A DNA stretch of 61,463 nucleotides, filler included, from Dugesia japonica (Eukaryota): the NCBI GenBank assembly GCA_001938525.1. It is 5 parts of 5 records of this genome, joined end to end, with 100 filler letters (N's around TTAATTAATTAA, not from the genome) between each part and the next. Parts side by side here need not be neighbours in the genome. Positions count along the whole stretch, not along the records: positions 32,764 to 41,861 come from MQRL01538394.1; 4 more parts are not named here. One strand, 5' to 3'. A program made the position numbers and the translations under genes. This document shows positions 7,854 to 52,952 of this stretch, piece after piece. The notes under the pieces were generated by a model that was given only the letters and a program-made list of their open reading frames with translations, did no database searches and had not been told where the DNA came from. The first letter of the stretch is position 1; every line of letters begins with the position of its first letter.

Positions 7854-9100
7854 TGTTGAGATACTTTGGGGGATTAATTACCAAAGTAAATCAGCAATAC
7901 GTGAGCTTATATTTTTTAATGAAATTTGTTAAAAATAATCCCAGTATACTAAAAGATAGATTGCTTATGCACCTTAATATGATTAATATAAATGTAATGA
8001 TATTTATAAATAAACTATATAATGTTCCTTATATAGATCAAATAAAAATTAACCTTTAAATACATATTATTATGAACACGTAAACTTAAATTAACAATAA
8101 GCGTCACTGGATAAAAGTTTTGCTCAGTTGTGAATTGAAAGACAATTCAAACTGTTGAATAGTTTGCTAGATAATGGCGATTACAATGAAAATTAATCCA
8201 CTATTTATACTAGTGGCTTATGAAACCATGCATATAAAATTTTCGTAAAAATTTCCGTTATTTACATAAATTTCTCAAAATCACAATATATTTATAAAAT
8301 TTTGTATTAAATTATTTATAAAGTTACAAAATTTTCGTATAGTAAATGAAATTTCTATATTTATAAAATTACAGAGTTTATAAAATTATCGTAAATGAAT
8401 TTTCTATTTTCACATAATAATGGATTTTCTATTTTCGCTGCCTGTAAACAAACCATAATTACGAATTTTCACTGTTTATAAATAACTTTTATGATAAATC
8501 ATTAATCATAAAAATTAATAAAAATAAAAATTTACAAGACAATAAAAATTTACAATACAATTTGTTCATGCAAGAAGAGTCAATAAAGTCGAGTCAATTA
8601 AATGATAGGATCAAATAAAGTTCTGATTGATGGCTATTATTCTCGAACTGATTGTTTGGTTAATGTTGATCTTGGATTGAATTTAATGATCTTGAATTTG
8701 TTGCTATGTTTGTTATGTTTTATATGTGTGCCTGTGAGTTGTTTGTTGNNNNNNNNNNNNNNNNNNNNNNNNNNNNNNNNNNNNNNNNNNNNNNNNNNTT
8801 ATAAATAACTTTTATGATAAATCATTAATCATAAAAATTAATAAAAATAAAAATTTACAAGACAATAAAAATTTACAATACAATTTGTTCATGCAAGAAG
8901 AGTCAATAAAGTCGAGTCAATTAAATGATAGGATCAAATAAAGTTCTGATTGATGGCTATTATTCTCGAACTGATTGNTTGGTTAATGTTGATCTTGGAT
9001 TGAATTTAATGATCTTGAATTTGTTGCTATGTTTGTTATGTTTTATATGTGTGCCTGTGAGTTGTTTGTTGCGTGTGCTTGTGAATGGTTTACCCCAACA
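7854..9100 (-). mobile_element. Solo LTR (TGTTG...CAACA) with 4-bp TATA target-site duplication
   Basis: TGTTGAG starts at 7854 and CCCCAACA ends at 9100. TATA flanks both sides (7850-7853, 9101-9104). An internal ~320-bp duplication across an N gap is probably an assembly artefact. Strand is tentative. Confidence 0.6.
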
Positions 9101-27118: not shown

Positions 27119-27725
27119 TTTTCAAGGTCACTGATACAGTTTAAGCAATTCTGATTGGTGAGAAATTTGAAGGTCGAATTTTCAAGGTCAAACAGATACA
27201 GTATCCTTGATTCTGATTGGTCGAAATATTTTCAAGGTCAAATTGATATAGTATCCTGTGTTCTGATTAGTTGATGTGTTTCAAGGTCAAAGTGATACAA
27301 TATATTTTGATCTGATTGGTTGGAGCATGTCAAGATCTATGTGATATAGTATTCTTTGATCTGATTTGATAGAGCATTACAAGGTCAAAGTAATACAGTA
27401 TCCTTTAATCTGATTGGTCAAAGCTTCTCAAGGTTAAAGGGATAAAATGTCCTATGATTTGATTTGATTAAGGGTTTCAAGGTCAAAGTGATACAGTACT
27501 CTTTGATCTGATTTTTAATAGAGCATTACAAGGTCAAAGTGCTATAATATCCTTTGATCTGATTGATCAAAGCTACTGAAGGCAAAGTCGTATAGTATCC
27601 TATGATTTTATTGGATGAAGTGTTTCAAAGTCAAATTTATACAGTATCCTTTGATCCGATTGGTAGAAGCATTTCAAGGTCAAAGTGATATAGTATCCTG
27701 CGTTCTGATTAGTCGAAGTGTTTTA
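27119..27725. repeat. ~49-bp tandem repeat, about 12 copies (TTTCAAGGTCAAAGTGATACAGTATCCTTTGATCTGATTGGT...)
   Basis: The CAAGGTCA core or variants recur at ~27123, 27183, 27233, 27282, 27331, 27380, 27429, 27478, 27529, 27578, 27626 and 27675. Confidence 0.9.
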
Positions 27726-28299
27726 AGTGTTAGTTCCTCAGGCAGACTTAATATTTGAATTTCCTCCGCAGACTTAATATTAATAAAAAATTTTGTTTTA
27801 ATGTTTTAATTTTATTTTTTGTTTTAATTTTTCATTTTTTTGTCTTTGTTTCAACAAGCAGATAGGAAATTAAAAAGTAAGATAGGATTGACTCATGAAC
27901 CTGTATCTTAAAAAATCTCCTTCCCTATAGAAATCGCGATTAAAGATAAAGTATGTAGATAGTAGCTCTCTAGATCACCCCTCTCCCTACCCCTAGACAA
28001 AGAACCTTTAGAATAAAGAGCGATGAGTCATAGGTATGACTCATCGATTACTACAACAAAGACAATGATTTATCGATGACTAGAACGAAGACAATAAGTC
28101 ATCGTTTTTATATATTATGAGTCATCGTTTTTCTTAAACTTTTTTCAAAAGCAGTGATTAAGTATCCTCGATTCTGATTGGTCAGTGATCCAGTATCATT
28201 GATTCTGATTGGTTGAAAATTTCCAAAGTTTTTGTGATGCCTCATTGTTTTATAGATCACAACTGCAACTATAACAAAGAGCATGAGTCTTACTTTTGT

Positions 28300-29859: not shown

Positions 29860-32300
29860 TTATATTTTGCTGACCTCTTGTTTCCGACAGTGGTCCACAA
29901 ACATCTGTAAATAACAGTTCAAAAATTTCGGCTGGCTGCGTCTTTTTCGTTTCTTTCTTCGTTTTTGTTGTCCACACTTTAGCTTTCTAGCATGTTATAC
30001 AGCTTTAGACAATCTCTTGTACTTTGCTCTACAAATCTTTCGCGTTATATTTATGTTTTATATACGCTGCAACCGTTTCTGCTCCAGCATGACACAAAAG
30101 ATGGCGTATCCTCATTATAACTTTTTCTACTTTATCATCAGAAATACTTGTTCTTTCATCATTTTCTCCGAAAACACCTTGTTTTTCTTGAATATCTACT
30201 GTATTTAACATCCTTGTTTTTAATTTTCCACTTTTGGGATTTTCATGTGACATTAGAAATTGTTCACATCTATTGCCTTTACTCCTTGACAACATATCTG
30301 CATTTGTATAAAGCGATACTTTTCTTTATTCCAATTTTATATCTAAACTGCTCAAATAATAATTCCAGGTTTGAAACTTTGGNGTAATCGGCTTCTTGGT
30401 ATGTAGCATAAAAATGATGGCTTTAAGGTCTGTTCTGAAGATAAATCTCTTTCTATACAAGTAATGTTTGAAATGAATACAAAAGTAGTAAATTTCGAGC
30501 AATCTTTCCGTGTAGTAGAATATCCTTTATCATGACTCGTCATTGCATGTGACTCATATGCAATTACTCTTTCTTGTCCATTGTTGTCCATTTGAGATAG
30601 TACTGCTCCAATCGTATCGAAACTCGCATCTTTGTCCAAAATAAATCTTCTATTTATATCTAGAAAACATAATATTGGAGACACCATTAGTGCTTCTTTC
30701 ATTCCATTAAAAACGTCTTCTAATTCGTTCGCCCATTCAATTTTCTTGTTACTTGGCCCACTACACAGTTGTTCCAGCAATCAAGGTTATTTCGAATAAT
30801 CTTTAAAAAACATCGATAATAATTGCAAATTCATAAAGGCTTCTTATGTTCTTAACGCATTTTGGTTTACCAAAGTTCTTAATTGCTTCTATTTTAGTTG
30901 GATCAGTTTTGACATCTTCTTTACTGATAACGCGTCCCAGAAATTCGATCTCCTTTTTCATGAATTGACATTTCTCCGGATTAACTCGAATACCCACCTT
31001 CTTAATTTCTGTTAATATTTTACTGATTATTTCAAAGTGTTGCCACTTTGTTTCGGTAAATATGAGAATATCGTCTAAATAAACCATTGCTCCTTTTTTT
31101 CGACTACTTTATTCATAATTTCCTGGAACGTACATGGCGCTGCTGCAATTCTAAAAAGTATTCTATTGAAACAAAATTGCCATTTCTTGGTCGAAAAAGC
31201 CGTCTTTTCTTGAAAATCTTCACTGAGTTCCACTTGGTGTTATGCATTGTTCAAGTCTATTGAGCTAAAATACTGGGTACCTTCCAAAGCATCTAGCATT
31301 TTATCTGCATTTTGCATAGAAAAAGCTTATCTTTCTGTTACTCCATTGAGCTATCTAAAGTCTAAGCATAATCTTATATCCTTTTTTTCCTTTTTTCAAA
31401 CACAGATTAATGGCGTATTCCATTGCGAATTACACTTCTGGATGATAGCAGTATCATATAGATTCTTGATGACCTCTTTAATCTTTTTCTCTAGATTCAT
31501 TGGCTGGCGATATGGTTTAATGTTGATTGGACGTTCTTTAGTGATTATTCGATGCTCTGTTAAGTCTGTACATTCAATGTCCCATTTATCCGCCATAAAT
31601 ACATCCTCATTATTCTGAATAATCGCAGTCAATGTATGATCTTTGTTAATTTTTAGAATCTCTATTCCATGTCTCAATCGTTCACCCGTCTGTATTTGCC
31701 TTCCAAATTTTGCCTCGATATTACAAACAAATTTTTCTCGATAATTATTGATGTCTACTCTGCATGATTTTTGAAGATGATATCCAATGGTATTCTGAAA
31801 TTCCACTCCAACAATTAGATCTGGTATTAATTTCTCTACTATTACAAATGTTACTTGCTTGCACATCTCTTAAAATATAACTTTTACACGTATCTTTCAA
31901 AGTGTTTCCAATGAGGTATGTTTCGCGCAATGCAATCGTTCCTCGCTTTTCTCTAACTTTGTTTCTCCAAGTCTATTAAATCCTTTCATGCTCATCACGT
32001 TTACTCTTGCTCCAGTATCCAAAGAACAATCAAACTGATCACCGCTGATCATCACTAAAATGCTAGGTGTTCCTTGCATTTTATCATACAAAATTTCTAC
32101 ATTCTATTTCTCTTCAATTATTCCTATCACTTCTGCTTTGTTAACTTTAGCATCATTAAAACTTTATCTTTTTAGGAATCTGTAAATCTTTTTCTCCCAC
32201 TTTACTCGTTTCATCCCATTTCTCGTCCTTTTGAGGATATTCAAAACAGTAAACATTGATATGGCGTTTCCTTTTTTGGATAAGAGTGTACATTGTTCAA
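29860..32300 (-). mobile_element. Decayed Ty3/gypsy pol (protease, RT, RNase H, integrase N-terminus)
   Basis: LDTGARVNVM (protease); HRIITKERPINIKPYRQP and VYLDDILIF (RT); FILDKDASFDTIGAVLSQ (RNase H); HLLCHAG and ELLFTDVCGPL (integrase). Confidence 0.95.
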
Positions 32301-33170: not shown

Positions 33171-33515
33171 TGATTATGATCATATTCGCACTTAATCCCG
33201 TTGTCAATAATTAGAATCATTGACATGAATACTATTTCCGGGTGGATGACATCATTTAATAATTTGGTCAACGGAGTATGGAAGTTTAGGACGACGTGCT
33301 GGAAATTACTTTACTTATTTTCGATAATAGATTTAATGATTACCCGTTTAAGCATTAGTTTTTGAACATTTATGATCAAAAGCCTCACTACTATGAACTG
33401 CCAGTATCGACATTTTGTCAAAAAGGTCTTCTTTGTAGATGTATTTTTATTCATACCCATAATAATCTTTTTACGCTAAACGTACTTTCCAAAATTAATC
33501 CTATTATTTAGTAAT

Positions 33516-33702
33516 ATGCCAGGAGAAAAGCGTAATCATTTACGTCTAATTCTCAAAGCCCGAAGATCAGTGCGGCTGAATCAATTTATTGGATATCTCC
33601 TTTTTCCTGAATTATTGGAGAACTCTGATGAGACATATTTTAAGCTGTTTCCAGGAAGTGTTTTCTATAGAATTCGATGTTGATGTAGATCGTGACTCTT
33701 AA
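33516..33702 (+). pseudogene. ORF-A of copy L (~61 aa, one frameshift)
   Basis: MPGEKRNHLRLILKARRSVRLNQFIGYLLFPELLENSDETY/SCFQEVFSIEFDVDVDRDS aligns with the ORF at 39784-39966. Confidence 0.7.
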
Positions 33703-33868
33703 GTCGGAATAATTTCATATTATTGATATTTACTAAATAAAATCCTTGTCCTTTATTTGCTGTTAAGATTTACTTCTTATAATTGCTGTTTTTACAAATT
33801 TTACTTTAGAATTTATTAAACGCTCTGTTTAGATTTTACGTTAATTCTTATTTAGTGACTCAATATCG

Positions 33869-34247
33869 TTGAAGTTTAGTACTAGACCAGCTTACCAGCC
33901 GTATGGTGTTTAAGAGGTTCACTAACCCCTGCAATAGGGATGCAGGAGTATTGATGGATCGTTTCAATCTGCCGAATTGGGATGCGAACGTCGAAAGACG
34001 AGCCGATGCAGCAAACTGACAACTTTAATACAACTTGACAGGCCCCGATCAGAATGTCTCACTCATTCCTCCTTTTCCTTCATCACCTACACGAAAAGAT
34101 TTAGAAGATTATTTCGGTTTACAGATTTTCAGCATCATGTTTGCACCTCGTGAATAATTTTCTCCAGTACTCGAACTTTGTTTCTTCCGTGTTTATCGTC
34201 GATTAAACGACCCTGATCGTTTCGTTGCTACTCTTATTGTTATATGA
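33869..34247 (+). pseudogene. ORF-B of copy L (in-frame stops)
   Basis: LDQLTSRMVFKRFTNPCNRDAGVLMDRFNLP...YNLTGPDQ aligns with LDTHSGQTAFKRYQNPYNRDASVLADRSNVP...YSWCGPER of 39125-39541. Confidence 0.75.
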
Positions 34248-34249
34248 CA

Positions 34250-35700
34250 TAAAATAAATGTGGCATTATCTAAATATAGTAAAAATTGTCCAATTGCGAT
34301 TGCATGGTTTGATATAAAGGATGCTTTTGGTAGTGTTCCACACTTTTACTTATTTGCATTGCTACAATATATTGGGGTTGAAATGATTTTATTAACATCC
34401 TAGAACTCCTATTCTCTGATACATTCTCATTTTATACTTCAAACAGGGCTGCTCATTATTTATAATCCTATTTAATTTGGCAATCAATCCAGTTCTCCAA
34501 TCAATTTCTGCATCCAACACAAAACCTTTTATGATAGGTTCATCAAAAATTCAGACTCTTGTATATGCGGATTATTTGGCACTCGTTGCAACTAATACTG
34601 AAGATCTTTATAAAATAATAAATATAGCAATAGAAACTCCAAGAATCATTGGATTTGAATTTCGTCCAGATAAACGCGCTTATCCTCAACTACCTCAAAC
34701 CAACTTCACCAGCGAATTCTCTATAAATGATAAGAAAATTAAAAAATTAGCTACAAAATAATTTTATCAATATCTTGGCGTTCCGGTCAGAGATAGAAAT
34801 GACCAAAGTCCTCATGAGACGAAACAACAAGTCATTGATGATTTAACAAAAATTGCGGATTCAGACTTACTAGGATGGCAGAAGCTAAAGGCATACAAAG
34901 TATTCCTACATTTTAGACTAACATTTGCATTCCAAACGCGCGAAATCAAAATAAGCGCTCTTAGCAATCCTCAGAATAATCCAAATGTCAGTAACAACAA
35001 TACCAGTAAAGTTCATTTCTAACTTAGACATATATTAAATCTTCCGAAACGATCTGAAATTCTATACTTCTACAATTCAACCGAAAATGGAGGAGCTGCT
35101 TGAGTCGATCTGTTGGATGAATATCAAATTCAATGTGTTGTGAAATATTTTAAATTACTTACCTCAAGATGCATGTACACAAACAAAAACAATATAGACT
35201 CCTTGTGTCTCGCAGCAAGTTCATGAATAAACAAACTAAACCCATCTCTAAATGAATGTCTCGAATAGGATAAATGGGGAAAAAGCATTGAAAAACTCAA
35301 ATGCAAAGAAAATGCACTTTCAGCAAATAAGAACTGCAATAAATTTCTTCAAAAGGTTTCATGATACAGATATATCGTTTAAAGTACTTAATAAAGAAAT
35401 AGTCCTTTATATGACAAACAAGACAAGAGGAACCTATGTTATTACTCATACCTCTCGTAAAGAAATTTCAAATATTATTCACAACGTACTCTTTGATTCA
35501 TACTCTGAAAAATGGAAAAAAAGCAAAGTAAGCAACTTGATATTCTCAGCTATTCAAATGAGCCATATTGTTAATAAAATGATTTTCAAAAGTGACCTCA
35601 ATGAATTTCCGTGGAATTTCATTCACAGTGCACGAACAAACTCCCTATCGATACGTGGTAGATCCTTTTATAACTTCCAATATTGAAGAATAGTATTTGA
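34250..35700 (+). mobile_element. Decayed early-branching non-LTR retrotransposon RT (R2/NeSL/R4-like)
   Basis: IAWFDIKDAFGSVPH, LVYADYLAL (YADD box), FYQYLGVPV, LTGWQKLKAYKVFL, ENGGAA and HSARTNSL. The LxPWQK-type motif is typical of restriction-like-endonuclease clades. Confidence 0.85.
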
Positions 35701-36678
35701 AGAATTGAAGAAACATGTGTGGGTTCCATGTAGATCCAAAAACAAGACTGTTAGTTTATTCAAATTTGTTATATTTAATAAATTTTATTATTAGAATTTT
35801 AATTCTTTGGTTACTACTCTAATTGTTGTATGGCATATATCAGTTTTTCTCCTAAATAAAATAATACCAAATTTGAAATCATACGAGTTATGTACACAGA
35901 GAAAATTGAGTACAAAAAGTCAAAATTTGAGATTTTTCACCATAAAACCCTATTTATTTCATCGAGTATTGACTTTGGCGATTTTAGGTTAACATATTTC
36001 GAATCAGCGTAAATTTCTCTATCTAATAGATACTTTCTTAACTTATTTGAAAAGGAAAAAATTTTCAAAAAATTTTTATTTCTGATAAATGATCGCCGTA
36101 AAATTCTCAACAGTTTGGTATACAAATCTTTGGAATCTGAGATATAGAACATATTTTTTCAAAATTTTAGACTGTTCACCAGATTCACATAAAAATTTCA
36201 TTTAAAAAATTTTAAATTTTCATATTATTTAAACAACATGAACGGTTTGCCCGGATTCCTTTAAAACAATCCGATAAAAATTCTTTAAAAACTTTTAAAC
36301 AAATTAGACTGTTATCATGAATTTCCTTAAAAATGTTATTTCCTTTTTAAAAATGTTATCCCCTTTTTAAATTTCTTTTAAAAATTTATCCCCGTTTTAA
36401 AAGGGGGGAGGGGGGCCTTTTTAGGGATAAAATCAAGAGGCGATATGCGCCACTGTCTATCTTCCTTGTTGCTACCTGGATTTAGTAACTATGTTGGGGA
36501 ATTTCATTATTCCTTATGTGGAACAATTTTTTGTTTCATTTAAAAGCCTTCGGTTTAGATTTTAGCAATGCCGTTAAAATACTTATACTCTTTCCTTAGT
36601 GAGTTTGACCCGGAAACAGTCTGTGGCTCCCAATAAAAAGTGACTTAAAAAAACAAGTTACTTAAAAAGGACTTAAAA

Positions 36679-36966
36679 ATGTCTTGGGAGCCTTACAAAT
36701 TTTCTAAGCGAAAATGGAAGGCCGAGATCAATACTGAAAAAGCCAAGTCAAGTTTATATCGAAGAAAATGTAGTGAGTATAAAGCGGAATCAGAGGCATC
36801 CCGTGAGCAGGAGCGTATTTGGAAACGCCAGCTCGAATCATTCGCTGACGTAATCCGGTCCCTCCATGACCGTGAGATTAAACTGGTAACTGACCTACTA
36901 GAATTTAGGAAGAATATTCCGATAGAACCATTAATGATTAACAAGGCAACTCAAACACGAAATTAA
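36679..36966 (+). CDS. ORF-C of copy L: 95-aa coiled-coil protein ending in KATQT
   Basis: Intact ORF; homologous to the frameshifted ORF at 38621-38913. Confidence 0.7.
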   Translation: MSWEPYKFSKRKWKAEINTEKAKSSLYRRKCSEYKAESEASREQERIWKRQLESFADVIRSLHDREIKLVTDLLEFRKNIPIEPLMINKATQTRN

Positions 36967-37073
36967 TGTATTCTTTGGCTTAAATAAATTGTTTTGTTAA
37001 CTCTCTTGTTAATTCGATTAGTTCGCTTTATATATTTCGTACCTGATTTTCTGATTGAAATTCTTGTATTTAG

Positions 37074-37424
37074 GGCCAAGAGTTGGACTACCAAATTCTC
37101 TGCGCATGTGTCACAAGTTGTTGACCAAATTCATCATCGAACGCCACTAAAATATGCAAACGTTTGCTGTTACGGTTCCTTTCCCAAAAGAATCGCCTTA
37201 TAAAAAAACTTGAATTAGTAAACAAGAAGCAATTAGCGATTGTCAACCGGACAAACTTGCAGCTAACTAATAAGATCGCCTTTCTTAAACAATATATTAC
37301 CGATCTGGCTTCACACCTCGAGTTGGAGACCTGGTCACAATAGAATAATGGCGACGACGAGGCCGCGTTCAATTTCAAAGACAACGCGCCAATCGAATGG
37401 CTCGATCCAGGAGCTTTCTATTAA
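37074..37424 (+). pseudogene. ORF-D of copy L (coiled coil, disrupted)
   Basis: LPNSLRMCHKLLTKFIIERH...RLIKKLE...KIAFLKQYITDLASHL...NNGDDEAAFNFKDNAPIEWLDPG. Confidence 0.7.
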
Positions 37425-37625
37425 ATGTAGAAAAATAAATCTTACTTAATGTACGAGTTGTCTTCCTTTTAAATCTATTATTAATTAAGAGGAAATTTTA
37501 ACCCGCATTCAAGGTGTACAGTGAAAGCTAAAATGAGGGACATTAGGTTAAATTCTTCGTGGGGTCCACTGAGGGCTGTCTTTTCCCCCAGCCATATTTT
37601 TCTATTCCCAACTCAGATGGGACCC

Positions 37626-37627
<2 letters not shown>

Positions 37628-37695
<68 letters not shown>

Positions 37696-37745
37696 NNNNN
37701 NNNNNNNNNNNNNNNNNNNNNNNNNNNNNNNNNNNNNNNNNNNNN

Positions 37746-37795
<50 letters not shown>
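37628..37795. repeat. (AAT)n microsatellite between the two element ends, with a 50-N gap
   Basis: Direct inspection. Confidence 0.95.
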
Positions 37796-37797
<2 letters not shown>

Positions 37798-38039
37798 TTG
37801 GGGTTCTAACTGAGTTGGGGGAAAGAAAGCGTGGCTGGGGAAATACAGCCCTCAGGGAACCTTTTCAAGAATTTAAATCCAATGCCCCTTAGTTGGATAT
37901 TCAATGCAGAGCGGTTGACCTTCAATCTTTATGGGAGGTTCACACTCGTACACCTTTAATTTTGGTTCATTAATTTCCCTTATAGACATAGATAAAAAAT
38001 TAGACAAAAGTTTTCAAAAACATCTATTAACATTACAAC

Positions 38040-38416
38040 TTATAGGTCTTCCATTACACCGGGATCTAACCACTGATTCGGGCCAGTCTCCCAAAAGTCA
38101 AACGTGGCTATGTCGTCACTATTATTCAATTGTACCTAAGCAGGGTTTCCCATTTGGCTTGACAGGTCAGCTATATACTGTTTTAAGAAATCTATCTTTC
38201 GTTGTAATATTTGTTTGTTTTGTGCTTCGAGAGCCATGGTTTGGGCAGCCAAATCATTCTGTTTTTTAATCACTTAATCTAATTTCTTTTTTAGTCGGTC
38301 TCGTTGGGTGAAATGTCTTAGAAGGGTCCGTTCGGTCTTATTCTTTAAATGGCGTTCTAACAACAAGCGACGCATAATCCGGTGACACCTCCGTAAACTT
38401 GTTGGAAATACAATTC
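38040..38416 (-). pseudogene. ORF-D of copy R (two in-frame stops)
   Basis: FPTSLRRCHRIMRRLLLERH...RLKKKLD*...KIDFLKQYIADLSSQM...NNSDDIATFDFWETGPNQWLDPG. Confidence 0.7.
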
Positions 38417-38620
38417 NNNNNNNNNNNNNNNNNNNNNNNNNNNNNNNNNNNNNNNNNNNNNNNNNNGGAAATACAATTCGTGGCACTAAATAATTAAGCA
38501 TTAACAATAGGGAAGAAATAATGAATATTATCGATATTGAGCTTATCTAATCAAAATTTAGGTGTTACATGCTAAGACAAAGACTACTACATACAAATTT
38601 TTATTCGCAGAACAGAAAGT

Positions 38621-38913
38621 TTAGTCACGTGGGGTGGATTTTGTCTGTGTGCTCTTATCAACCATGAGAGGTTCGAGGTACGATTTTTCTCTAAGGTGCA
38701 AGATATCCTTGACCAGTTTATTTTCACGGTCATGGCTGGACCAGCTGATCTCGTCGAACGACTCTACCTGCGATTTCTTTCTTGGTCGTGCGCAGCTTCC
38801 ATTTCTTTGCGTACGGTAACACATTTATTCCTATAACGCTTCACTTTTGCGTTGGCAGTGGATATCTCAGCTTCGAATCGCCGTTTCGCCAGTCGATATA
38901 ACTCCCAGGACAT
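38621..38913 (-). pseudogene. ORF-C of copy R (one frameshift), ending in DKSTQT
   Basis: MSWELYRLAKRRFEAEISTANAK...HDQER / QVESFDEISWSSHDRENKLVKDILHLREKSYLEPLMVDKSTQT. Confidence 0.75.
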
Positions 38914-39124
38914 TTCGGTGTCCTCGCTGGAGTCTCTCATCTGCTTATTAGGGGCCGATGAACGGTTTAATGATGAATGCACTATAACATAAATATAATA
39001 AAATAATGGAATCTAAATAAGACTGTCTATGGTTAAAAAAACAAAAGCAGTATGGGGTCTTAACCAATCAAACAATAAAAGGAAAAAAAATAATTCCTAA
39101 CTAAACATTTATTTTTTGGCCAAG

Positions 39125-39541
39125 TTACACTAACACATCTGGGATTTCCTCCTCGGCGTTTTCGTTGTTATTACTAGACATACCATTGCGGGCACTCCAT
39201 AAATAGTTCTGAACGAACGATGTTAGTTGAGTTGCTGAGGGCAGGCTACTAGTAGTGATGCCTACTAAAAAAGGTCCGTCATGCCACATGCGTTCAACCT
39301 GTGGTGTTCCTAGATCTCTCTCAAAAGAAAGCGGTGCCGGGGGAAAAGCAACTCGGTCTCTTTCAGGGCCACACCAGCTATAATAGGCACCTCTTTCAGT
39401 CGCATCCCATTGCCGATCTTCTATAATTTGTTCAGAAGGGACATTGGAGCGATCTGCTAGCACACTGGCGTCACGATTGTAGGGATTTTGATACCGTTTG
39501 AACGCGGTTTGGCCTGAGTGGGTGTCAAGGCTTACTTCCAT
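39125..39541 (-). CDS. ORF-B of copy R: 138-aa unknown protein
   Basis: Intact GC-rich ORF with a decayed homolog at 33869-34247. Confidence 0.7.
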   Translation of the reverse strand: MEVSLDTHSGQTAFKRYQNPYNRDASVLADRSNVPSEQIIEDRQWDATERGAYYSWCGPERDRVAFPPAPLSFERDLGTPQVERMWHDGPFLVGITTSSLPSATQLTSFVQNYLWSARNGMSSNNNENAEEEIPDVLV

Positions 39542-39783
39542 GTGAAGTTGGTCCTAGAATAGTAATTAGGAAGGGTTTAATTTAAACATTAAAAAACAAA
39601 AAAAATAATATGCGGTCTTGATTTGATATGAACTATTCACAAGTAAGAACAATATTTGGATTTTATTTCATGAAATTATTATTAAATTAACACAACATGT
39701 AAATATTTAATTATGAATTGGTTGAATCATAAACATGTAACGTCACCATCTACTTCAGTCGATTAAAGTCCTAGTGCGCTTTA

Positions 39784-39966
39784 TCACTCCTTATCCAAAT
39801 CTACTTGATTCTGTAGTGGGAACATTTCGCCGAAACACCGGAGATCTGTTTCGTCGGGATGTTCGATTACGCCGTGTGATAGAATGTGTGATAACAGCTG
39901 TCTTCTCCGAGATTTGCGTCTTTCAATTCGAATTAGTTTTAATACTTTCGATAAAGGGTCGGTCAT
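39784..39966 (-). CDS. ORF-A of copy R: 60-aa protein with basic N-terminus and acidic C-terminus
   Basis: Intact ORF with a homolog at 33516-33702. Confidence 0.65.
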   Translation of the reverse strand: MTDPLSKVLKLIRIERRKSRRRQLLSHILSHGVIEHPDETDLRCFGEMFPLQNQVDLDKE

Positions 39967-40168
39967 ACTACTTGATTATCTAACACAAAAAAATATCCTT
40001 TATTTAACCATTGAAAATTATAGAAAAATGTAATAATCTGTAGAGTTTAATTCTTATCGAATTTAGATAGCTCCAGTGTCCTTCCCCAAAAAACAAAAAT
40101 TGGCGAAATGAGTTTGAATTGAGAAACGAAAGTAAAACTGAAAACTACAAGTGACATGGCGATCTTCG

Positions 40169-40680
40169 TCACCCCACTATTTCTCTTAAATTTGAGATAT
40201 TAACGTTTCTGCAAACTAGTTTATAATATAAAATGAAGCATTTTCTCTGTAAATATAACAAATCTCTTACGGCAATCATTCGGCCTTCGTGAGAATAATA
40301 TTTAATAAAACTGCTGTAACTGTTTTTGTTAAAATCAACGGGGTATTCTGCCATATCTTTGATAACATCATCAATATCAAAATATATATCAAAATAGATA
40401 TAACTTTCAATAAATTATTATACCCCGTTGGATTTATACCAGATTTTATCTTAATAAATTTATGCGCATGGCTAGTTATACTGTTCATAGTTTTCCTTAT
40501 CAACTTTATAGAACGATTGAGACAGAAATTTTAAAAGATCTGATACCTTTTGGCGTGCATCAGAGATTTCCTGTAATTATTTATTCACCACCTTTCAAAT
40601 CGGAATATTTTGTTTCGCAATCTCATAACAAAAATTTAATCCCGTTTTATAACAAGTTGGCCTGGTTTAAATAATGCCAT
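40169..40680 (-). pseudogene. ORF-Z of copy R (frameshifted)
   Basis: IKIKSGINPTGYNN / YIFDIDDVIKD / YYKL resembles IMIIFALNPVVNN / YYFRVDDII / YYEL at 33171-33410. Similarity is weaker than for ORFs A-D. Confidence 0.4.
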
Positions 40681-41861
40681 CTTAAAACCATAACCACAAA
40701 AAAAATTTTTAAACAATATTATTTGAAATAGGGTAATTTATGCTTCCCGTGACAACGCTTTCAAGGTTGCCAAACTGGTTAGGTATCAATTTGACTCGTA
40801 TTGTTGCGATCTGGTGATTGCCGTGTTTCGTGTGTGATGGTGTCGCGGCATGCATGTATCGAAACTGAGTCAGTATGAGGTGTGTGTAAGACTAGTGCTG
40901 ATGAAGTTATGTTTACTGTCAATTGATTCCAGGTGTTCCAGAAACTACTGATGATCAGATAGTTCAGTCATTACGTGAATTTAGATGCGGGTCAAAGCAA
41001 GGGCTATCAATTGTGATTTTTGTTTATAAAAAAGATGGATATGCATATCATGATTCATGTTATAAATCCACAAGAGAATTGACAGTATATCTAGCAGCAC
41101 TTAGTGTACTTTCTCTTATTTAATGTTTTCTAAAATCAATTTCAAACTTTCGATAAGCCGAATCAAATTTTATTAAATTACAACTAAATTTTTTTTTCTT
41201 TTAAAATCAATTTAAAATTGTTGATAAACCGAATCAAATTTTATTGATTAAATGATTACGAAACTTTTCTTTTTAAACCCAAAAAATCCTTTATAAACTG
41301 AGTCAAACTTTATTTATTAAATTACTATTAAACCTTTATTTTTAAATCAATTTAAAACTTTTTATAAACTGAATCCAACTTTATTTATTAAATTACTATT
41401 ATTATTTTCATGAAATAACAAACATGATGGACAACAAAATCCTTACTCGATTATTAATTAGGCTGGTTCTGCAACGGATTAACTTTTTCGACACGGGAGT
41501 AGATTTCAGGCAACTGGCTAATATTTTCTGATGAAAATTTGTCTTCAGAGTAGTCGAGCTAATTTCTTCTCTAATTCTAATAATGACTCCGATTAACTAA
41601 CTTATCAGTTATCTCGATCTTACCAATTCAAACCTTTAGATTGAATATTCGATCCTACTTGCAACGTTTTCTAATACGATTTCCTTTATCAAGTTATTCC
41701 ACGTAAGTCACTTTATGGCAATGTTGTACATATGGAAAAAATTTTTGTAGTTAGTTTTCTCACTAAATTCAGGGGTCCTTTTATAGTATTTTCTGCACAC
41801 CCCAACTTCTTCCAGATTCGTTAGTTATTTTTAGATCGACATTTTAGACTTCCTATTGGAT

Positions 41862-42770: not shown

Positions 42771-43054
42771 GTAGACCCTAATTCTTTACCATAGGCCATT
42801 TTTCTATTATTACAATGTTCTCAAGAACTTATAATCGGTTTCAAATTACACATAAATTAATAAATTATGAAAGGTACAATTAGTATTTTTATTTCATCTT
42901 AACTAGAAACTAATTTTTAGTTATAATTTTAGTTAAGAAAAATTATTTTTGAATTGTTGCATTAAGACTTAAATAATCGTCAATAAAATTATATTTAAAG
43001 TATTATTCTCAATACAATAAAATAATGAAATATAGATCCGAAAATTCCAAATAC

Positions 43055-44630
43055 CTATAAATTGAATCGCTTCATCGTAATAAGCACGCATATCTTGCTT
43101 ATTACAATCTGTTGCTGAAAGACGCTTGTAAATAAATAGATCCTCGCGATAGGAAGGCACATTAGTTGTCACATTCAAAATGTGAGTGATTTTTTTCTCT
43201 TGTAAAACTTCTACATCATTCGAATCCATTTCATTTCCTATATAAAAAATATATAAATCAAATTACCGCCAACTAAAAATAAAAATGACGTAGTTACTAA
43301 AAATAGAAACTAATGAAAAATTAACAGATCAAATTACATTTTCAATTAAATGTCGGTATTAACTCAATAGATTAAGGTGAAACATATTTTTACAGTAAAA
43401 AAAATCAATATTTCGACTAAAACAAAATTATAACGTCACAAAAATGAATGATTTCACGAAAAATATAAACTTGAATTATATAATAATCCACATAATTTCT
43501 CAATCTATATTTAAAATTAGATGGTTTAATTGATTATTACAATTGATCTATTAGAATTAATTTATTATTACAAAAAAAACTTGAATTATGAAGTTTCCTT
43601 AATTAAGAATAAAGTCAAATAATTAAAACTTATGTCACGTACAAAAAAACTAATTTCATTTATTTAGAATTCATATTTAAATTTTAAAATTACCCAAAAA
43701 TAAATATGGCAAAATTTCCGATATTGTAGCATTTAGAACATCTGTGGACCGATTAGATTCATTTGTTGGGCTATAATGATATTGATCAATTTTTTCTTCA
43801 GGAATGGTAGATTCAATTAAACCTTTAGGAAAATAATTGATATATTCTTCATAACCACCTAGAATAAATTTGATTAATATCTATCACTTAATTTTATAGT
43901 CATTTAAAGAAAGTTAGAGTAAATACAATTTGTAAATACTTAGCTGATTTGCAGAAATTCGAAATTTGAACTGACAGAATTTACGTTCAATGTCAGTTGA
44001 AATTACAAATCAGTTTTACAACTTTTAATTTTAATATTAGAAGATAAAACAATATTAAATGTGTTACTTAAATAAATTATTACCTGTTACAAAATATACA
44101 CTTTCAAAATCTTTCCGTAAATATTCTATAAAATCCATTAAATGGGAGGTTTTTTCACCTCTTTGATTATACAACACGATTGTTTCAAAATCATATCTTG
44201 ATTGACTGAATTTATCCCAACTTTTCTTAGCTTTCATCATCATTATTCTTGTTGTGCAATTAAAATGCTCAGCACCAATAATATGGCCGTTTTTAAAGGT
44301 TCTAACATCTCGTGTATCAATCAAACAAATTGTGTTTTTGGATTTCAACTTACTATCAAGCTCTGTTACTGATATTTCATCAAAATTCTTTCTAATTTGA
44401 ATTTTATCAAAATTATATGAAGTTGCGTCCATTACATTATTTACATATAACTTTTTTTGAGGGGCATAATCAATGTCTTTGATTTTAATAGCACAATCCG
44501 ATTCAATAGTATCCATGGATTGCAAAGAATTAATTTTTGTAGTTGACTGGAATGTTGGTTTCTTGAATTTATCATTCTTTATAATTACTGGCTTTGATAT
44601 AGGCCTTTTAGACACAATAACACCATTCAT
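43055..44630 (-). CDS. Dual-specificity MAPK phosphatase (DUSP10/MKP5/puckered-like), first three coding exons; 3' part not in this contig
   Basis: Exon 44630-44084 encodes a rhodanese domain (LIDTRDVRTFKNGHIIGAEHFNC). Exon 43858-43694 gives GGYEEY...ISEILPYLFLG. Exon 43237-43055 gives GNEMDSND...ILNVTTNVP...YKRLSATDCNKQDMRAYYDEAIQFI. All introns are phase-1 GT-AG. Confidence 0.9.
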
Positions 44631-45929: not shown

Positions 45930-48660
45930 GTGATTATGAGGTTGAGTTGTTTTAATAAGTTACGAGAACTATATTTAGAAATAAGCAATGAAAGATTACG
46001 ATGTGCAAACGTTAGTACATTTGAAATTGTTCGGAAAGTTAGAACTAGAGGGACAATTGATGAAGTTTGCAAAAAGGTTACTTTCTTAGTTTCAGGAATA
46101 GTGACACCAGATTTGACTGGAGGAATAGATATGTAGAAGACTTTTGAATATCAGCTTGTGTGAAAAGTAGACAGTAAAACTGATGTAAAAGTTGAAAATT
46201 AAATTTGTTATATTGAAGTAAAATTTGGGAGACAAACTAAAGAGAGAGCGATTGACAAGAACCCAAAACAGTCTAAAGCTTAAAAACGATAAAAAGTTTT
46301 TGGAAACAATAAAGACGTTTTCATTGCAAATAAATCGGATAAAAAGACGTACATATCTGACAAAACACAAAATAATCACAAGTGGTGAACCAATTAACGC
46401 AAAATCGTACAGGCAACCTATGAACTTAAATGGTAAAATTGTAGAAACTATCCAAAACCTTTTCGAGAATAATAATATCCGGAAATACAACTCTACATGG
46501 AATATCCCATTGATCTCTGTTTAGAAACAAGAAAAGAAGGATATAAGAACATGTTTCGATTTCAGACTTTTGAATGATGTAATAAAGGCCTTCTTGATGT
46601 CTAATGTCGATGAAACGTTGGATAAGTTGGATTGAGCAAAATATTTCAATTCAATAGATTTATCAAATGCGTACTATTAGATAGAGCTCGAAGAAGAATC
46701 TGAAGAAAAAACGGCGTTTTCAACGAAACACGGGCAATATGGTTTTAATAGAATGCCAATTTACATCGCTTCAGCACCGAGTACATTTCAGGAGATGATG
46801 ACAAAAGTGGGAGGCAGAATTAATGGAGCCAGTGTAAATCTTGATAACATTCGATATTTATGAACAATAAAGATCAATACTATGAAGTAATTGACAGAAT
46901 ATTGACGGAAATAATAAAGACCGGTTTAAGAATTAATTCGGAAAAGTGTCAGTTTCTTCAAGGCAAAATAAAATTTCCTGGACACATAATCAGCAGGGAT
47001 GGTGCTAAAACTTATCTGTCTAGAATATAAGCAATACGAATATTTGTAAAACCTAACTGCGTGAAGAAGTTACGAAGTTTCTTAGAAATATGTAATTACT
47101 ACCGGAAGTTTTTAGAAAACTATGCAAAAAATCGAAGATCTTAGAACAGTTGTGTAGTGGACCAAGTATTAAGAAACTATAATAGACAAATAAATTAAAG
47201 GATACTTGCCTAAGTCTGAAAAAAGCTTTAATGGCTGCGTCAATATTGTGTTTTCCAAATATGATCAGAGAATTTTTATTGGATACGGACATTAGTTTCA
47301 ATACTATTGGAGAAGCATTATCAAAGAACGATAAAGAAGAAAGAGAAAGGGTTGTTGCATATGAATCACAATAATGTAAATAGTTAAGGAAATGCAGTTG
47401 TATTAATATAATTTTTATAAAATTAAATCACTAAACGTGAATGGAATTGGTATCATGACAAAGTTGAGAATAAAAACAAACAAGTGTCAAAGTAAAATAA
47501 AGATGTCAAAATTTTAAAGAGACTTAAATCGGATAAATTATAACAAAACCACAAATCTTTCTTAAATGACGAGAAGTCATTCTCATGGATGATTTTGTGA
47601 ATATGTATTATAAACCGAATTGGAGAGACCAAACCTTAAAGAAATAATGAAACAATGTATCCAGTTAGTTCAGTAGAGATTATAGACAAATGTTATTAAC
47701 AATTTGAGTTATTATACCAGTACTTGACTGTGGGATTGAAAATTAAGAAGTTAGTGTGCGAGCAATGAGAGATAAGTGTGACCAACTCATTCCTATTGAA
47801 TCTTTGAATTTGTAATTTTTATTCTTGATAACATCTTATTTGATAAAATTTTTTTATTGGTTACTATGTGAAGAGTAAATTGTGCATGCGTGTGCAATAC
47901 TATTTAAATAATTGTAAATAATCATAAAATTTGGTTAAACGTACTGAAACCCAATTGTAGAGCAATAAAGTCATTATTGAGTTAATCAATTCTGCTTGAT
48001 ATGAGTCATAATTTTTTAGATTTTAGAAAAGATTATATGCCTTAGACGAACCTTTACCTGAGCGTGGAGCAGATTTAATTTAAAGTTAAAATAAATTTTG
48101 TTATTAAACAAGTTTAAGTGTTGGAAACCTCAACACTGTTTACTATTTCTGCATGCATTTCAGACATTACTTGTATGGTAGAAAATTTACTCTTAACAAA
48201 GAAGAACCCTATCACATCACAATTCCAAACATGGATTAATTACCTTAGTAGTTTAGACATTATATTAGAATGTAGAAAAGGAATTCAACATGGTAATGCA
48301 GATATGTTTTCTAGAACAAGATGTGAGGTATCTGTACTTGAAAATGTCAAGAAAAGAAAGATTAAAATAAGAGTGCTAAACACAATCAAAAGGGAAAAGG
48401 AAAAGCAATTAAATACTTCAGAAGAGAAAGATTTATTCAAGAAAAAAAATTTCGAATGACAAAATATGTGAAACAATAGAAGAAATTTACAATCATGCAT
48501 GAGTTGAAAAGGTGTAGGAATATATGAGAGACAAATACATTTCGAAGAATTTGTAAAGCCAAATACAGAAGATAGTTCGTAGCTGTGAAATATGCCAAAA
48601 AATCAAAGTAGTGATGACAACAACTAAAGTGAAGACAAAGAGATTAGAGGCTACCATAAT
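45930..48660 (+). mobile_element. Second decayed Ty3/gypsy pol, same family as 29860-32300
   Basis: HKIITSGEPINAKSYRQPMNL, KTAFST, LEQLCSGPS, VVAYESH, HFRHYLYGRKF and KNPITSQFQTWINYLSSLD are shared with the first copy. Confidence 0.9.
47375..48135 (+). mobile_element. Insertion in the gypsy RNase H region, probably a solo LTR (TG...CAACA)
   Basis: Gypsy coding similarity stops near 47370 and resumes near 48140. The insert begins TGTAA and ends CTCAACA. No clear target-site duplication. Confidence 0.5.
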
Positions 48661-49529
48661 AACATCTACACAATTATGCTCAATTTTATTACGTGAAATT
48701 GCATATTGTACCTGTTGTGTATAATATTAACTTGTGTTCTAATTTTTTTAAAAATATATATGTATATATTAATTATCATTTTCATACATAAGACACATTT
48801 TTAATGACTTAAGCATGCTAAAAATTATTGTTTAATTTTTTTAAAAAAGGTGACGAACAGACAAAGTGACAAAGTTACTTAAAGTGACAAAGTTTTTTAA
48901 TTGTTTGTGTCAACAGTTACATAGTGATAATGCAAATAAAGAACATAAAACATTTTAACATGGTANNNNNNNNNNNNNNNNNNNNNNNNNNNNNNNNNNN
49001 NNNNNNNNNNNNNNNTATATGAGAGACAAATACATTTCGAAGAATTTGTAAAGCCAAATACAGAAGATAGTTCGTAGCTGTGAAATATGACAAAAAATCA
49101 AAGTAGTGACGACAACAACTAAAGTGAAGACAAAGAGATTAGAGGCTACCATAATAACATCTTCACAATTATACTCATTTTTATTAAGTGAAATTGCATA
49201 TTGTACCTGTTGTGTATAATATTGACTTGTGTTCTAATTTTTTTAAAAATATGTATGTATATATTAATTATCATTTTCATACATAAGACACATTTTTAAT
49301 GACTTAAACATGCTAAAAATTATTGTTTAATTTTTTTAAAAAAGGTGACGAACAGACAAAGTGACAATGTTACAAACTAAGTAAAGCAAACTTAGAATTT
49401 ATTTTTCACATGAATTTGTTTTTGGCGGTTTTTTAATTGTTTGTGTCAACAGTTACATAGTGATAATGCAAATAAAGAACATAAAACATTTTAACATGGT
49501 ACTAAATTTTACCCTATATTTAAAATCAA

Positions 49530-51966: not shown

Positions 51967-52003
51967 CAATTCCTGACGAAGACAAGGTCGAAATATCGAA
52001 TTG
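51967..52003 (+). ncRNA. Minimal type-I hammerhead ribozyme motif (intact core)
   Basis: CAATTC (stem I), CTGACGA, extra A, GAC-AAG-GTC (stem II), GAAA, TATC, GAATTG (stem I'). Predicted cleavage after the ATC ending at 51997. Stem III is reduced to the palindrome ATAT. Confidence 0.8.
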
Positions 52004-52875: not shown

Positions 52876-52952
52876 CAATTTCTGACGAAGACAAAGTCGA
52901 AAAATTAGAATTAATATCAAAAACAAAAAAAATACATTTTTATCAAAGCTTT
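52876..52952 (+). repeat. Degenerate hammerhead repeat copy
   Basis: CAATTT-CTGACGA-AGACAAAGTC-GAAA-AATTA-GAATT followed by ATCAAAGCTTTT. Confidence 0.7.

What the first reader, a model, noticed from the sequence alone, without database searches (positions are those of the whole stretch)
33171..40700. Unrecognised five-gene mobile cassette in two diverged, tail-to-tail copies ending in one (AAT)n tract
Seen: the + strand of 33171-37627 and the - strand of 37796-40700 carry homologous small ORFs in the same order Z-A-B-C-D, all pointing toward the shared microsatellite. Examples: B FKRFTNPCNRDAGVL vs FKRYQNPYNRDASVL; C MSWEPYKFSKRKWKAEI vs MSWELYRLAKRRFEAEI; D KIAFLKQYITDL...WLDPG vs KIDFLKQYIADL...WLDPG. 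Similarity is clear in protein but spacers are not visibly alignable, so this is not a recent local inversion. Copy L is followed by (AAT)n and copy R by (ATT)n on its own strand, so the repeat looks like a target site rather than a tail. Copy R ends ...CCCCAACA, like an LTR or Ginger-type end. I recognise no transposase, RT or capsid in the ORFs. Inference: a microsatellite-targeting element or endogenous virus with a conserved accessory-gene module, possibly the gene-bearing LTR of a giant gypsy element such as the planarian Burro elements.
Basis: partly seen in the sequence, partly recalled or inferred. Interest (0 to 1): 0.88.

Follow-up and report, generated by a model that had tools for sequence, protein, structure and literature searches.

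The report
Gene-carrying repeat with spliced-in start codons
Two old copies of a many-copy repeat in an AT-rich animal genome (likely a planarian) carry the same row of four small unknown genes conserved at the protein level, which likely get their start codons by splicing onto one shared leader and probably sit in the long end-repeat of a large retrotransposon.

Summary
Observation mostly confirmed. Copies L (33171-37626, +) and R (37796-41120 or further, -) share ORFs A-B-C-D in order plus a conserved ~95-nt end; Z homology is not significant. The ORFs were under strong purifying selection (third codon positions 30% identical, first and second 56% and 64%). The family is high-copy: 5,196 contigs of one run lie on R, piling up on ORFs and the end, not on spacers. 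New here: each ORF opens at a splice acceptor at the same place in both copies. C and D are coding in phase 1 upstream of any ATG of their own, mostly as AG|TG, so a leader ending in A would make the start codon; several ORFs end in AATAAA. Splicing itself is not shown. No parent polymerase, integrase or protein family was found. Best reading: gene-bearing long LTR of a gypsy-type element; the published planarian GLT2 probe shows the same build by eye. The DNA family may already be catalogued; the architecture was not found in print.

The parts
33171..33500 (+). Decayed ORF-like stretch 'Z' of copy L; starts at a 152-N gap, so L's 5' end is unknown
   Evidence: position only; homology to Z of R not significant
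33512..33702 (+). ORF A, copy L (acceptor, ATG 4 nt later, one frameshift; AATAAA at 33736)
33856..34230 (+). ORF B, copy L (acceptor AG|TG, phase 1; internal stops; 3' end displaced by the insertion)
34235..35800 (+). Nested, decayed, 5'-truncated R2-like non-LTR RT fragment (limits approximate); absent from R
   Evidence: Pfam RVT_1 E 1e-4, under the cut-off; PDB R2 protein 9nl2 E 6e-4; motif AWFDIKDAFGSVPH at 34302-34343
35801..36480 (.). Unidentified AT-rich insertion in L's B-C spacer (limits approximate)
   Evidence: no counterpart in R; no clear TIR pair
36600..36966 (+). ORF C, copy L (acceptor AG|TG; intact 95-aa part from 36679; one long predicted helix; AATAAA +17)
37074..37424 (+). 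ORF D, copy L (acceptor AG|GG, phase 1; frameshift and stop; WLDPG; AATAAA +10)
37425..37626 (+). Conserved non-coding end of L: TATA-like block plus ~95-nt terminal segment with nested stem
37627..37796 (.). (AAT)n tract with a 50-N scaffold gap at 37696-37745
37796..38039 (-). Conserved non-coding end of R, ending CCCCAACA (TGTTG on +); TATAA at 37984
38040..38485 (-). ORF D, copy R (acceptor AG|TG, phase 1; two stops; the 50-N gap at 38417-38466 is an assembly placeholder)
   Evidence: (contigs skip 63 bases there)
38621..38981 (-). ORF C, copy R (acceptor AG|TG, phase 1, open into MSWEL; one frameshift near 38776; AATAAA +16)
39125..39553 (-). ORF B, copy R (intact 138 aa from 39541; acceptor in phase 0 in this copy; AATAAA +12)
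39784..39970 (-). ORF A, copy R (intact 60 aa; ATG 4 nt after the acceptor)
40169..40680 (-). Decayed ORF Z, copy R (169 codons, 8 stops); RNA reads of a diverged relative map here
40681..41861 (-). Upstream part of R: family DNA to at least 41120, then ~70-bp tandem repeats (41124-41409) and a further decayed ORF-like stretch up to the contig break

Best explanation
These are two decayed, distantly related copies of a many-copy repeat family that carries four small genes under purifying selection, likely the gene-bearing long terminal repeat of a large gypsy-type retrotransposon, whose genes are predicted to be made as separate mRNAs by splicing one shared leader onto a different acceptor for each gene. 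Shown: homology, order, selection, many diverged family members, conserved end, acceptor and AATAAA motifs. Inferred: (1) a leader exon outside the window ends in A and, joined to AG|TG, makes the ATG of B, C and D, while A uses its own ATG; (2) each mRNA ends at its own polyA site, or at the end of the repeat; (3) an integrase of the parent element joined the ...CA end into (AAT)n tracts in either orientation, and recombination or decay left LTR pieces; (4) C and D, helical coiled-coil-like proteins, likely act as non-enzymatic accessory factors (particle assembly or host interaction). L later received an R2-like insertion.
For: Selection: identity by codon position 164/188/89 of 293; pN 0.395, pS 0.867, synonymous sites saturated. 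Copy number: 5,196 contigs laid, 374/986/1917/1919 at 99+/95-99/90-95/<90%; summed depth 9,561 on A, 70,288 and 9,851 on C, 17,013 at the end, against 228-269 in the Z-A and A-B spacers (summed depth is no copy number). Acceptors: 7 of 8 are T-rich TAG with no nearer AG; TG follows in 4 of 6 for B-D against 4.8% of background sites. Phase-1 coding upstream of any own ATG: C keeps S.APNK with 4 synonymous changes at the same distance from the acceptor, D keeps PR...P.SLR.CH. Other family members differ on the intron side of the C and D acceptors but keep a T-rich tract and AG|TG (loose ends: 25 contigs at 38416, 2 at 38983). AATAAA within 20 nt of the stop in 4 of 8 testable ends, background 0.072 each. 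R's end fits the TGTNR terminus of Gypsy and Ginger (PMC2836005); a second, unrelated CCCAACA end abuts (AAT)n at 16785. Extra ORFs of invertebrate LTR elements are typically expressed from spliced messages (PMC5408684). The GLT2 transposon probe of S. mediterranea (PMC8532177 supplement), read by eye on its sense strand, shows AT-rich spacer, T-rich TAG|TG and about 79 open codons in phase 1.
Against: No gag, pol, integrase, second LTR, PBS or PPT is linked to either copy. L's end (TATTC on the other strand) does not fit TGTNR. None of the 15 listed joints (5 more not shown) is GT-AG, and no donor exon was found; but no raw RNA read was 95% alike or better, so the test was weak. B of R is in phase 0, D of L reads AG|GG, A of R is AAG. 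Acceptors were picked by eye, and acceptor-like sites are common (15 in L, 10 in R). D of R has no AATAAA; those of A and Z in R lie 117 and 165 nt away. Internal polyA signals would shorten a retroelement's genomic RNA. The GLT2 likeness is architectural and unscored, and GLT2's class was not stated in the passages read. The host is inferred, not shown.
Confidence: 0.5

Rival explanations
1. End of a DNA-based element (Ginger-like transposon, Polinton or virus-like, or a new kind) with an adenovirus-late-like unit: one leader, many acceptors, many polyA sites.
For: Introns and internal polyA signals cost a DNA element nothing. The TGTNR end is shared by Ginger. Same sequence evidence for selection and acceptors.
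Against: No transposase, PolB or capsid linked; the weak PolB-like piece at 21184-22006 (E 0.02) is 11 kb and several gaps away. No relative in viral contigs or PHROGs. Ginger targets are CCGG or RTATAY, not AAT.
Confidence: 0.2
2. 3' end of a giant Penelope/Athena (Terminon-like) retroelement with co-oriented coiled-coil ORFs, retained introns and a microsatellite target.
For: Terminons carry many ORFs including coiled-coil ones; PLEs keep introns and favour microsatellites. Depth is highest near the 3' end. Both ends can fold alike, with 1 compensatory pair of 15.
Against: No hammerhead motif or Rfam family at either end; folding no better than shuffles (z -0.17 and 0.26); no telomeric repeat; ends face the tract in opposite orientations, unlike target-primed insertion (inference); no PLE RT in the cassette.
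Confidence: 0.15
3. Whatever the carrier, the cassette is an operon resolved by the host's spliced leader rather than by a cis leader.
For: Flatworm operons have ~100-bp gaps (PMC8629364); spacers here are 107-230 nt. Flatworm leaders end in AUG (PMC12582326); that AUG would meet a stop at once in 4 of 8 sites and be in frame with B of R.
Against: A leader ending in AUG reads phase 0, but the conserved N-termini of C and D are phase 1 and lie upstream of their own ATGs. No leader-like loose end among the 21 listed (833 not shown).
Confidence: 0.12
4. A duplicated host gene cluster or local inversion.
For: Strong purifying selection; some RNA reads from a relative.
Against: Thousands of diverged contigs, sharp conserved end at a microsatellite, stops and frameshifts in both copies.
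Confidence: 0.03

Closest known systems
GLT2 transposon of Schmidtea mediterranea (Repbase-derived; probe in PMC8532177 supplement)
   Same: By eye: AT-rich spacer, T-rich TAG|TG acceptor, then a GC-richer, heptad-like ORF open in phase 1 with its first own ATG about 30 codons in; qPCR primers lie on that strand.
   Different: No sequence score was computed; its forward primer does not match the window. Only 400 of 485 probe letters were visible. The paper's passages do not describe its genes or class.
Burro/GYPSM1 giant gypsy elements (PMC6431247)
   Same: Thousands of copies, over 30 kb with LTRs, accessory ORFs, tandem repeats; R spans at least 3.3 kb with tandem repeats upstream.
   Different: Described accessory content is MATH, BIR, BCL2, ankyrin, env in or beside a giant polyprotein; none is seen here. 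Genes in the LTR or AAT targeting are not mentioned in the passages read.
LTR elements and complex retroviruses with spliced accessory ORFs (bdelloid ORF3, PMC5408684; errantivirus env, PMC13097621; genes in U3 such as MMTV sag and HIV nef, recalled)
   Same: Accessory ORFs expressed from spliced RNAs sharing a 5' leader; a start codon made by the splice is recalled for Drosophila gypsy env (paper not held).
   Different: Here at least four acceptors in a row, several with their own AATAAA, and no protein similarity.
Terminons (Athena PLEs of bdelloids)
   Same: Many co-oriented ORFs, coiled-coil proteins, conserved 3' end joined to a simple repeat.
   Different: No hammerhead, no telomeric repeat, both orientations, no RT found.
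Adenovirus major late unit (recalled)
   Same: Shared leader, alternative acceptors, alternative polyA sites.
   Different: No viral hallmark gene; likeness in layout only.

Membership tests
Gypsy-type LTR retrotransposon | TG...CA (TGTNR) termini | tested here: inconclusive
   R fits (TGTTG), L does not (pattern)
Gypsy-type LTR retrotransposon | Two direct LTRs around gag-pol, with PBS and PPT | not testable with these tools
   Both copies end at assembly gaps on the 5' side; no genome held. Gypsy pol pieces at 30029-32079 and 45936-48641 are separate
Gypsy-type LTR retrotransposon | Short target-site duplication | not testable with these tools
   Only one end of each copy is seen, inside a microsatellite
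Burro/GYPSM1 | Identity to Burro LTR or polyprotein | tested here: inconclusive
   One 20-nt BURRO1 oligo does not match the window; no Burro sequence available; Grohme 2018 not held
GLT2-type planarian repeat | Sequence homology to GLT2 | not tested
   Same build by eye; one primer does not match; no alignment run
Penelope-like / Terminon | Hammerhead and telomeric repeat at the 3' end | tested here: not met
Penelope-like / Terminon | PLE reverse transcriptase | tested here: inconclusive
   None in the cassette; 5' parts missing
Penelope-like / Terminon | Many co-oriented ORFs including coiled coils | tested here: met
Polinton / adintovirus | PolB, integrase, capsid, ATPase inside TIRs | tested here: inconclusive
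   No such gene linked; no hits; other end not in view
Ginger DNA transposon | Gypsy-like transposase, TIRs, CCGG or RTATAY target | tested here: not met
   Target is (AAT)n; no transposase seen
Helitron | CTRR 3' end after a short hairpin (recalled) | tested here: not met
   Ends are CCCG and CCCCAAC(A)
R2-like non-LTR element (the insertion in L only) | R2-type RT motifs | tested here: met

The most novel reading that the evidence does not exclude
A so far unclassified family of large, microsatellite-targeting integrating elements (or an endogenous virus lineage of flatworms) that runs an adenovirus-late-like expression unit: one leader supplies the A of ATG to a row of orphan genes, each with its own polyA site, with GLT2 as a misfiled relative.
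Probability: 0.22. Interest if true: 0.9.

Novelty: new variant of a known kind. Interest (0 to 1): 0.68.

Why it matters
Long LTRs and unclassified repeats are usually treated as non-coding. Here they would hold a conserved set of orphan genes kept by selection across subfamilies whose silent sites are saturated, with a start codon that exists only after splicing, which hides the genes from ORF finders. If the host is a planarian, these proteins are testable candidates for how its giant elements assemble or counter piRNA silencing, and the widely used GLT2 probe may be detecting one such gene.

Tried and rejected
Protein searches: C no candidate; B profile only P0001 (1 of 132 candidates); D profile 0 of 72; phmmer of B over 1.84 billion proteins gave 2 hits, P0001 (real: 52%, E 1.7e-14, 512-bp ENA contig) and P0002 (fibronectin-repeat protein, spurious). 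A and Z were not searched in the large libraries; longer or fused forms were covered only for B. Pfam, PHROGs and PDB: nothing beyond weak coiled-coil hits. Atlas: only low-recognition hypothetical or bZIP-like leads. Viral and JGI metagenome scans blank; L001 is a bacterial glycosidase-like gene, a chance match. Fold of B unusable (pLDDT 46); C is a single helix, so no fold search was run. No RNA holder on record was listed. dN/dS could not be given as a number because dS is saturated. ORF at 14190-14579 as a C homologue: not significant. No tRNA, no Rfam match at the ends. Four look-ups of earlier findings were empty. One supplement of PMC11410931 was an unreadable scan.
Full report
Observation. 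The window is AT-rich animal-type DNA with many gaps and repeats; a planarian host is my inference from composition and context, not a tool result. tblastx of L against the window hits R in the order A, B, C, D and the end (joint E 4.6e-42). Each of A-D beats all 2000 shuffles; Z does not (224 of 2000). DNA identity is about 60% in C and D and 72% over the last 95 nt, while the A-B and C-D spacers are no better than shuffled. On the ORF strand L runs into (AAT)n and R into (ATT)n. Two corrections: a 50-N scaffold gap splits the tract, so the tail-to-tail join is unproven, though each end is solid on its own contig; and L holds a decayed R2-like RT between B and C (RVT_1 E 1e-4; PDB R2 protein E 6e-4) that R lacks, so it is a later insertion.

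Real genes. Over 293 aligned codons, identity by position is 164, 188 and 89 (chi-square p 1.5e-16); pN 0.395, pS 0.867 (4 codons skipped), so silent sites are saturated. The segments came from tblastx, which biases slightly towards this result but cannot explain its size. ORFs A-D are GC 0.37-0.48, spacers 0.22-0.30. One outside relative exists for B: P0001, 52% identical, from a 512-bp contig. No family, structure or viral relative was found for any ORF searched. C folds as one 69-residue helix; D gives only weak coiled-coil hits.

Many copies. Only R (37800-41120) was laid. In run X1, 5,196 contigs lie on it, most at under 95% identity, with depth peaks on A, C and the last 220 nt and troughs in spacers. 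Summed depth is no copy number, but the spread shows many diverged members, with coding parts and the end conserved. All 30 bins are covered, so the family runs past 40700. The 50-N gap in D is a placeholder (contigs skip 63 bases). Raw RNA gave 96 and 19 reads, none 95% alike or better, mostly over Z and, in X15, all with the first mate on +, which would be sense in a usual stranded library: a relative is weakly transcribed. X7 (RNA is a guess) gave 730 contigs.

New layout. Each of A-D starts just after an AT-rich spacer at an acceptor-like site. 7 of 8 are TAG with no nearer AG; TG follows in 4 of 6 for B-D against 4.8% of like sites in the window. I chose the sites by eye and such sites are common (15 in L, 10 in R), so the weight lies in their agreement between copies: both A sites read AG|TARTATG; both C sites are followed in phase 1 by S.APNK at the same distance with 4 synonymous changes, upstream of any ATG; both D sites are followed in phase 1 by PR...P.SLR.CH, again upstream of any ATG. 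Other members differ on the intron side yet keep a T-rich tract and AG|TG at C and D (loose ends). An upstream exon ending in A would give ATG. Exceptions: D of L reads AG|GG, B of R is phase 0. The ORFs end in stops at matching places, and AATAAA follows within 20 nt in 4 of 8 testable ends (background 0.072); A of L at +34 from the homologous stop (positions), A and Z of R at +117 and +165, D of R none; B of L and Z of L were left out as untestable. No splice joint was seen (15 joints listed, 5 not shown, none GT-AG), but RNA coverage was too thin to test it. The flatworm spliced leader ends in AUG and would read phase 0, which does not fit C and D.

The end. The last ~95 nt stay 72% identical although silent sites are saturated, so the end is likely a functional cis element. 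Both copies can form the same nested stem (15 pairs, 1 compensatory), but not better than shuffles. No hammerhead or Rfam match lies there. R's end fits the Gypsy/Ginger TGTNR pattern, L's does not. An unrelated CCCAACA end abuts another AAT tract at 16785. Opposite orientation to the tract suits an integrase better than target-primed insertion (inference from two copies).

Comparison. Burro elements are giant, occur in thousands of copies and have accessory ORFs (PMC6431247; passages, outline, section 6 part 2), but the passages mention neither genes in the LTR nor AAT targets. The closest lead is the GLT2 probe (PMC8532177; passages and supplement rows): read by eye it shows the same spacer, TAG|TG, phase-1 ORF build. 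That is unscored, and one primer each of GLT2 and BURRO1 does not match the window. Other papers seen as passages only: PMC8557442, PMC11410931 (supplements 99, no hit, one file unreadable), PMC5408684, PMC8629364, PMC13097621, PMC12582326, PMC6884822, PMC2836005; PMC6824462 had no hit (107). Ten literature searches listed no description of this layout; Repbase and Grohme 2018 could not be read, so the DNA family may well be catalogued. Gypsy env start by splicing, genes in U3, the adenovirus late unit and the Helitron end are recalled.

Verdict. A real, selected, high-copy orphan-gene module with an unusual predicted expression scheme. Parent most likely a large gypsy-type LTR element (0.5); DNA element or virus-like 0.2; Penelope-like 0.15; spliced-leader operon 0.12; host cluster 0.03. 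New variant of a known kind; interest 0.68.

Noticed in passing
window 15849-16785: LTR-like segment ending CCCAACA at another (AAT)n tract; on the minus strand it starts TGTTGGG with a TATA-like box near 16456. Shares only the terminal 7 nt with copy R.
   Followed up: partly
window 13946-14600 (-): Intact 130-aa coiled-coil-like ORF behind an acceptor-like site, then ~240 nt, a gap and an (ATT)n tract: similar build to the cassette; likeness to C not significant.
   Followed up: partly
window 24051-24071, 51973-51993, 52882-52902 (family also near 5182, 42629, 45285): Short dispersed repeat with a minimal hammerhead core (CTGACGA...GAAA), retrozyme- or Penelope-like.
   Followed up: no
window 21184-22006: Decayed PolB-like fragments (Pfam DNA_pol_B_2 E 0.02), possibly a Polinton remnant.
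   Followed up: partly
window 29941-32079 and 45933-49136: Two decayed gypsy pol copies in opposite orientation, 64% alike.
   Followed up: no
window 42969-44630 (-): ORFs resembling a dual-specificity (MAP kinase) phosphatase with a rhodanese-like part, likely a host gene (recalled motifs, not tested).
   Followed up: no
window 27180-27727: 49-bp tandem array, 11 copies.
   Followed up: no
window 8476-9071 and 19403-19908: Near-identical duplications across N gaps, likely assembly artefacts.
   Followed up: no
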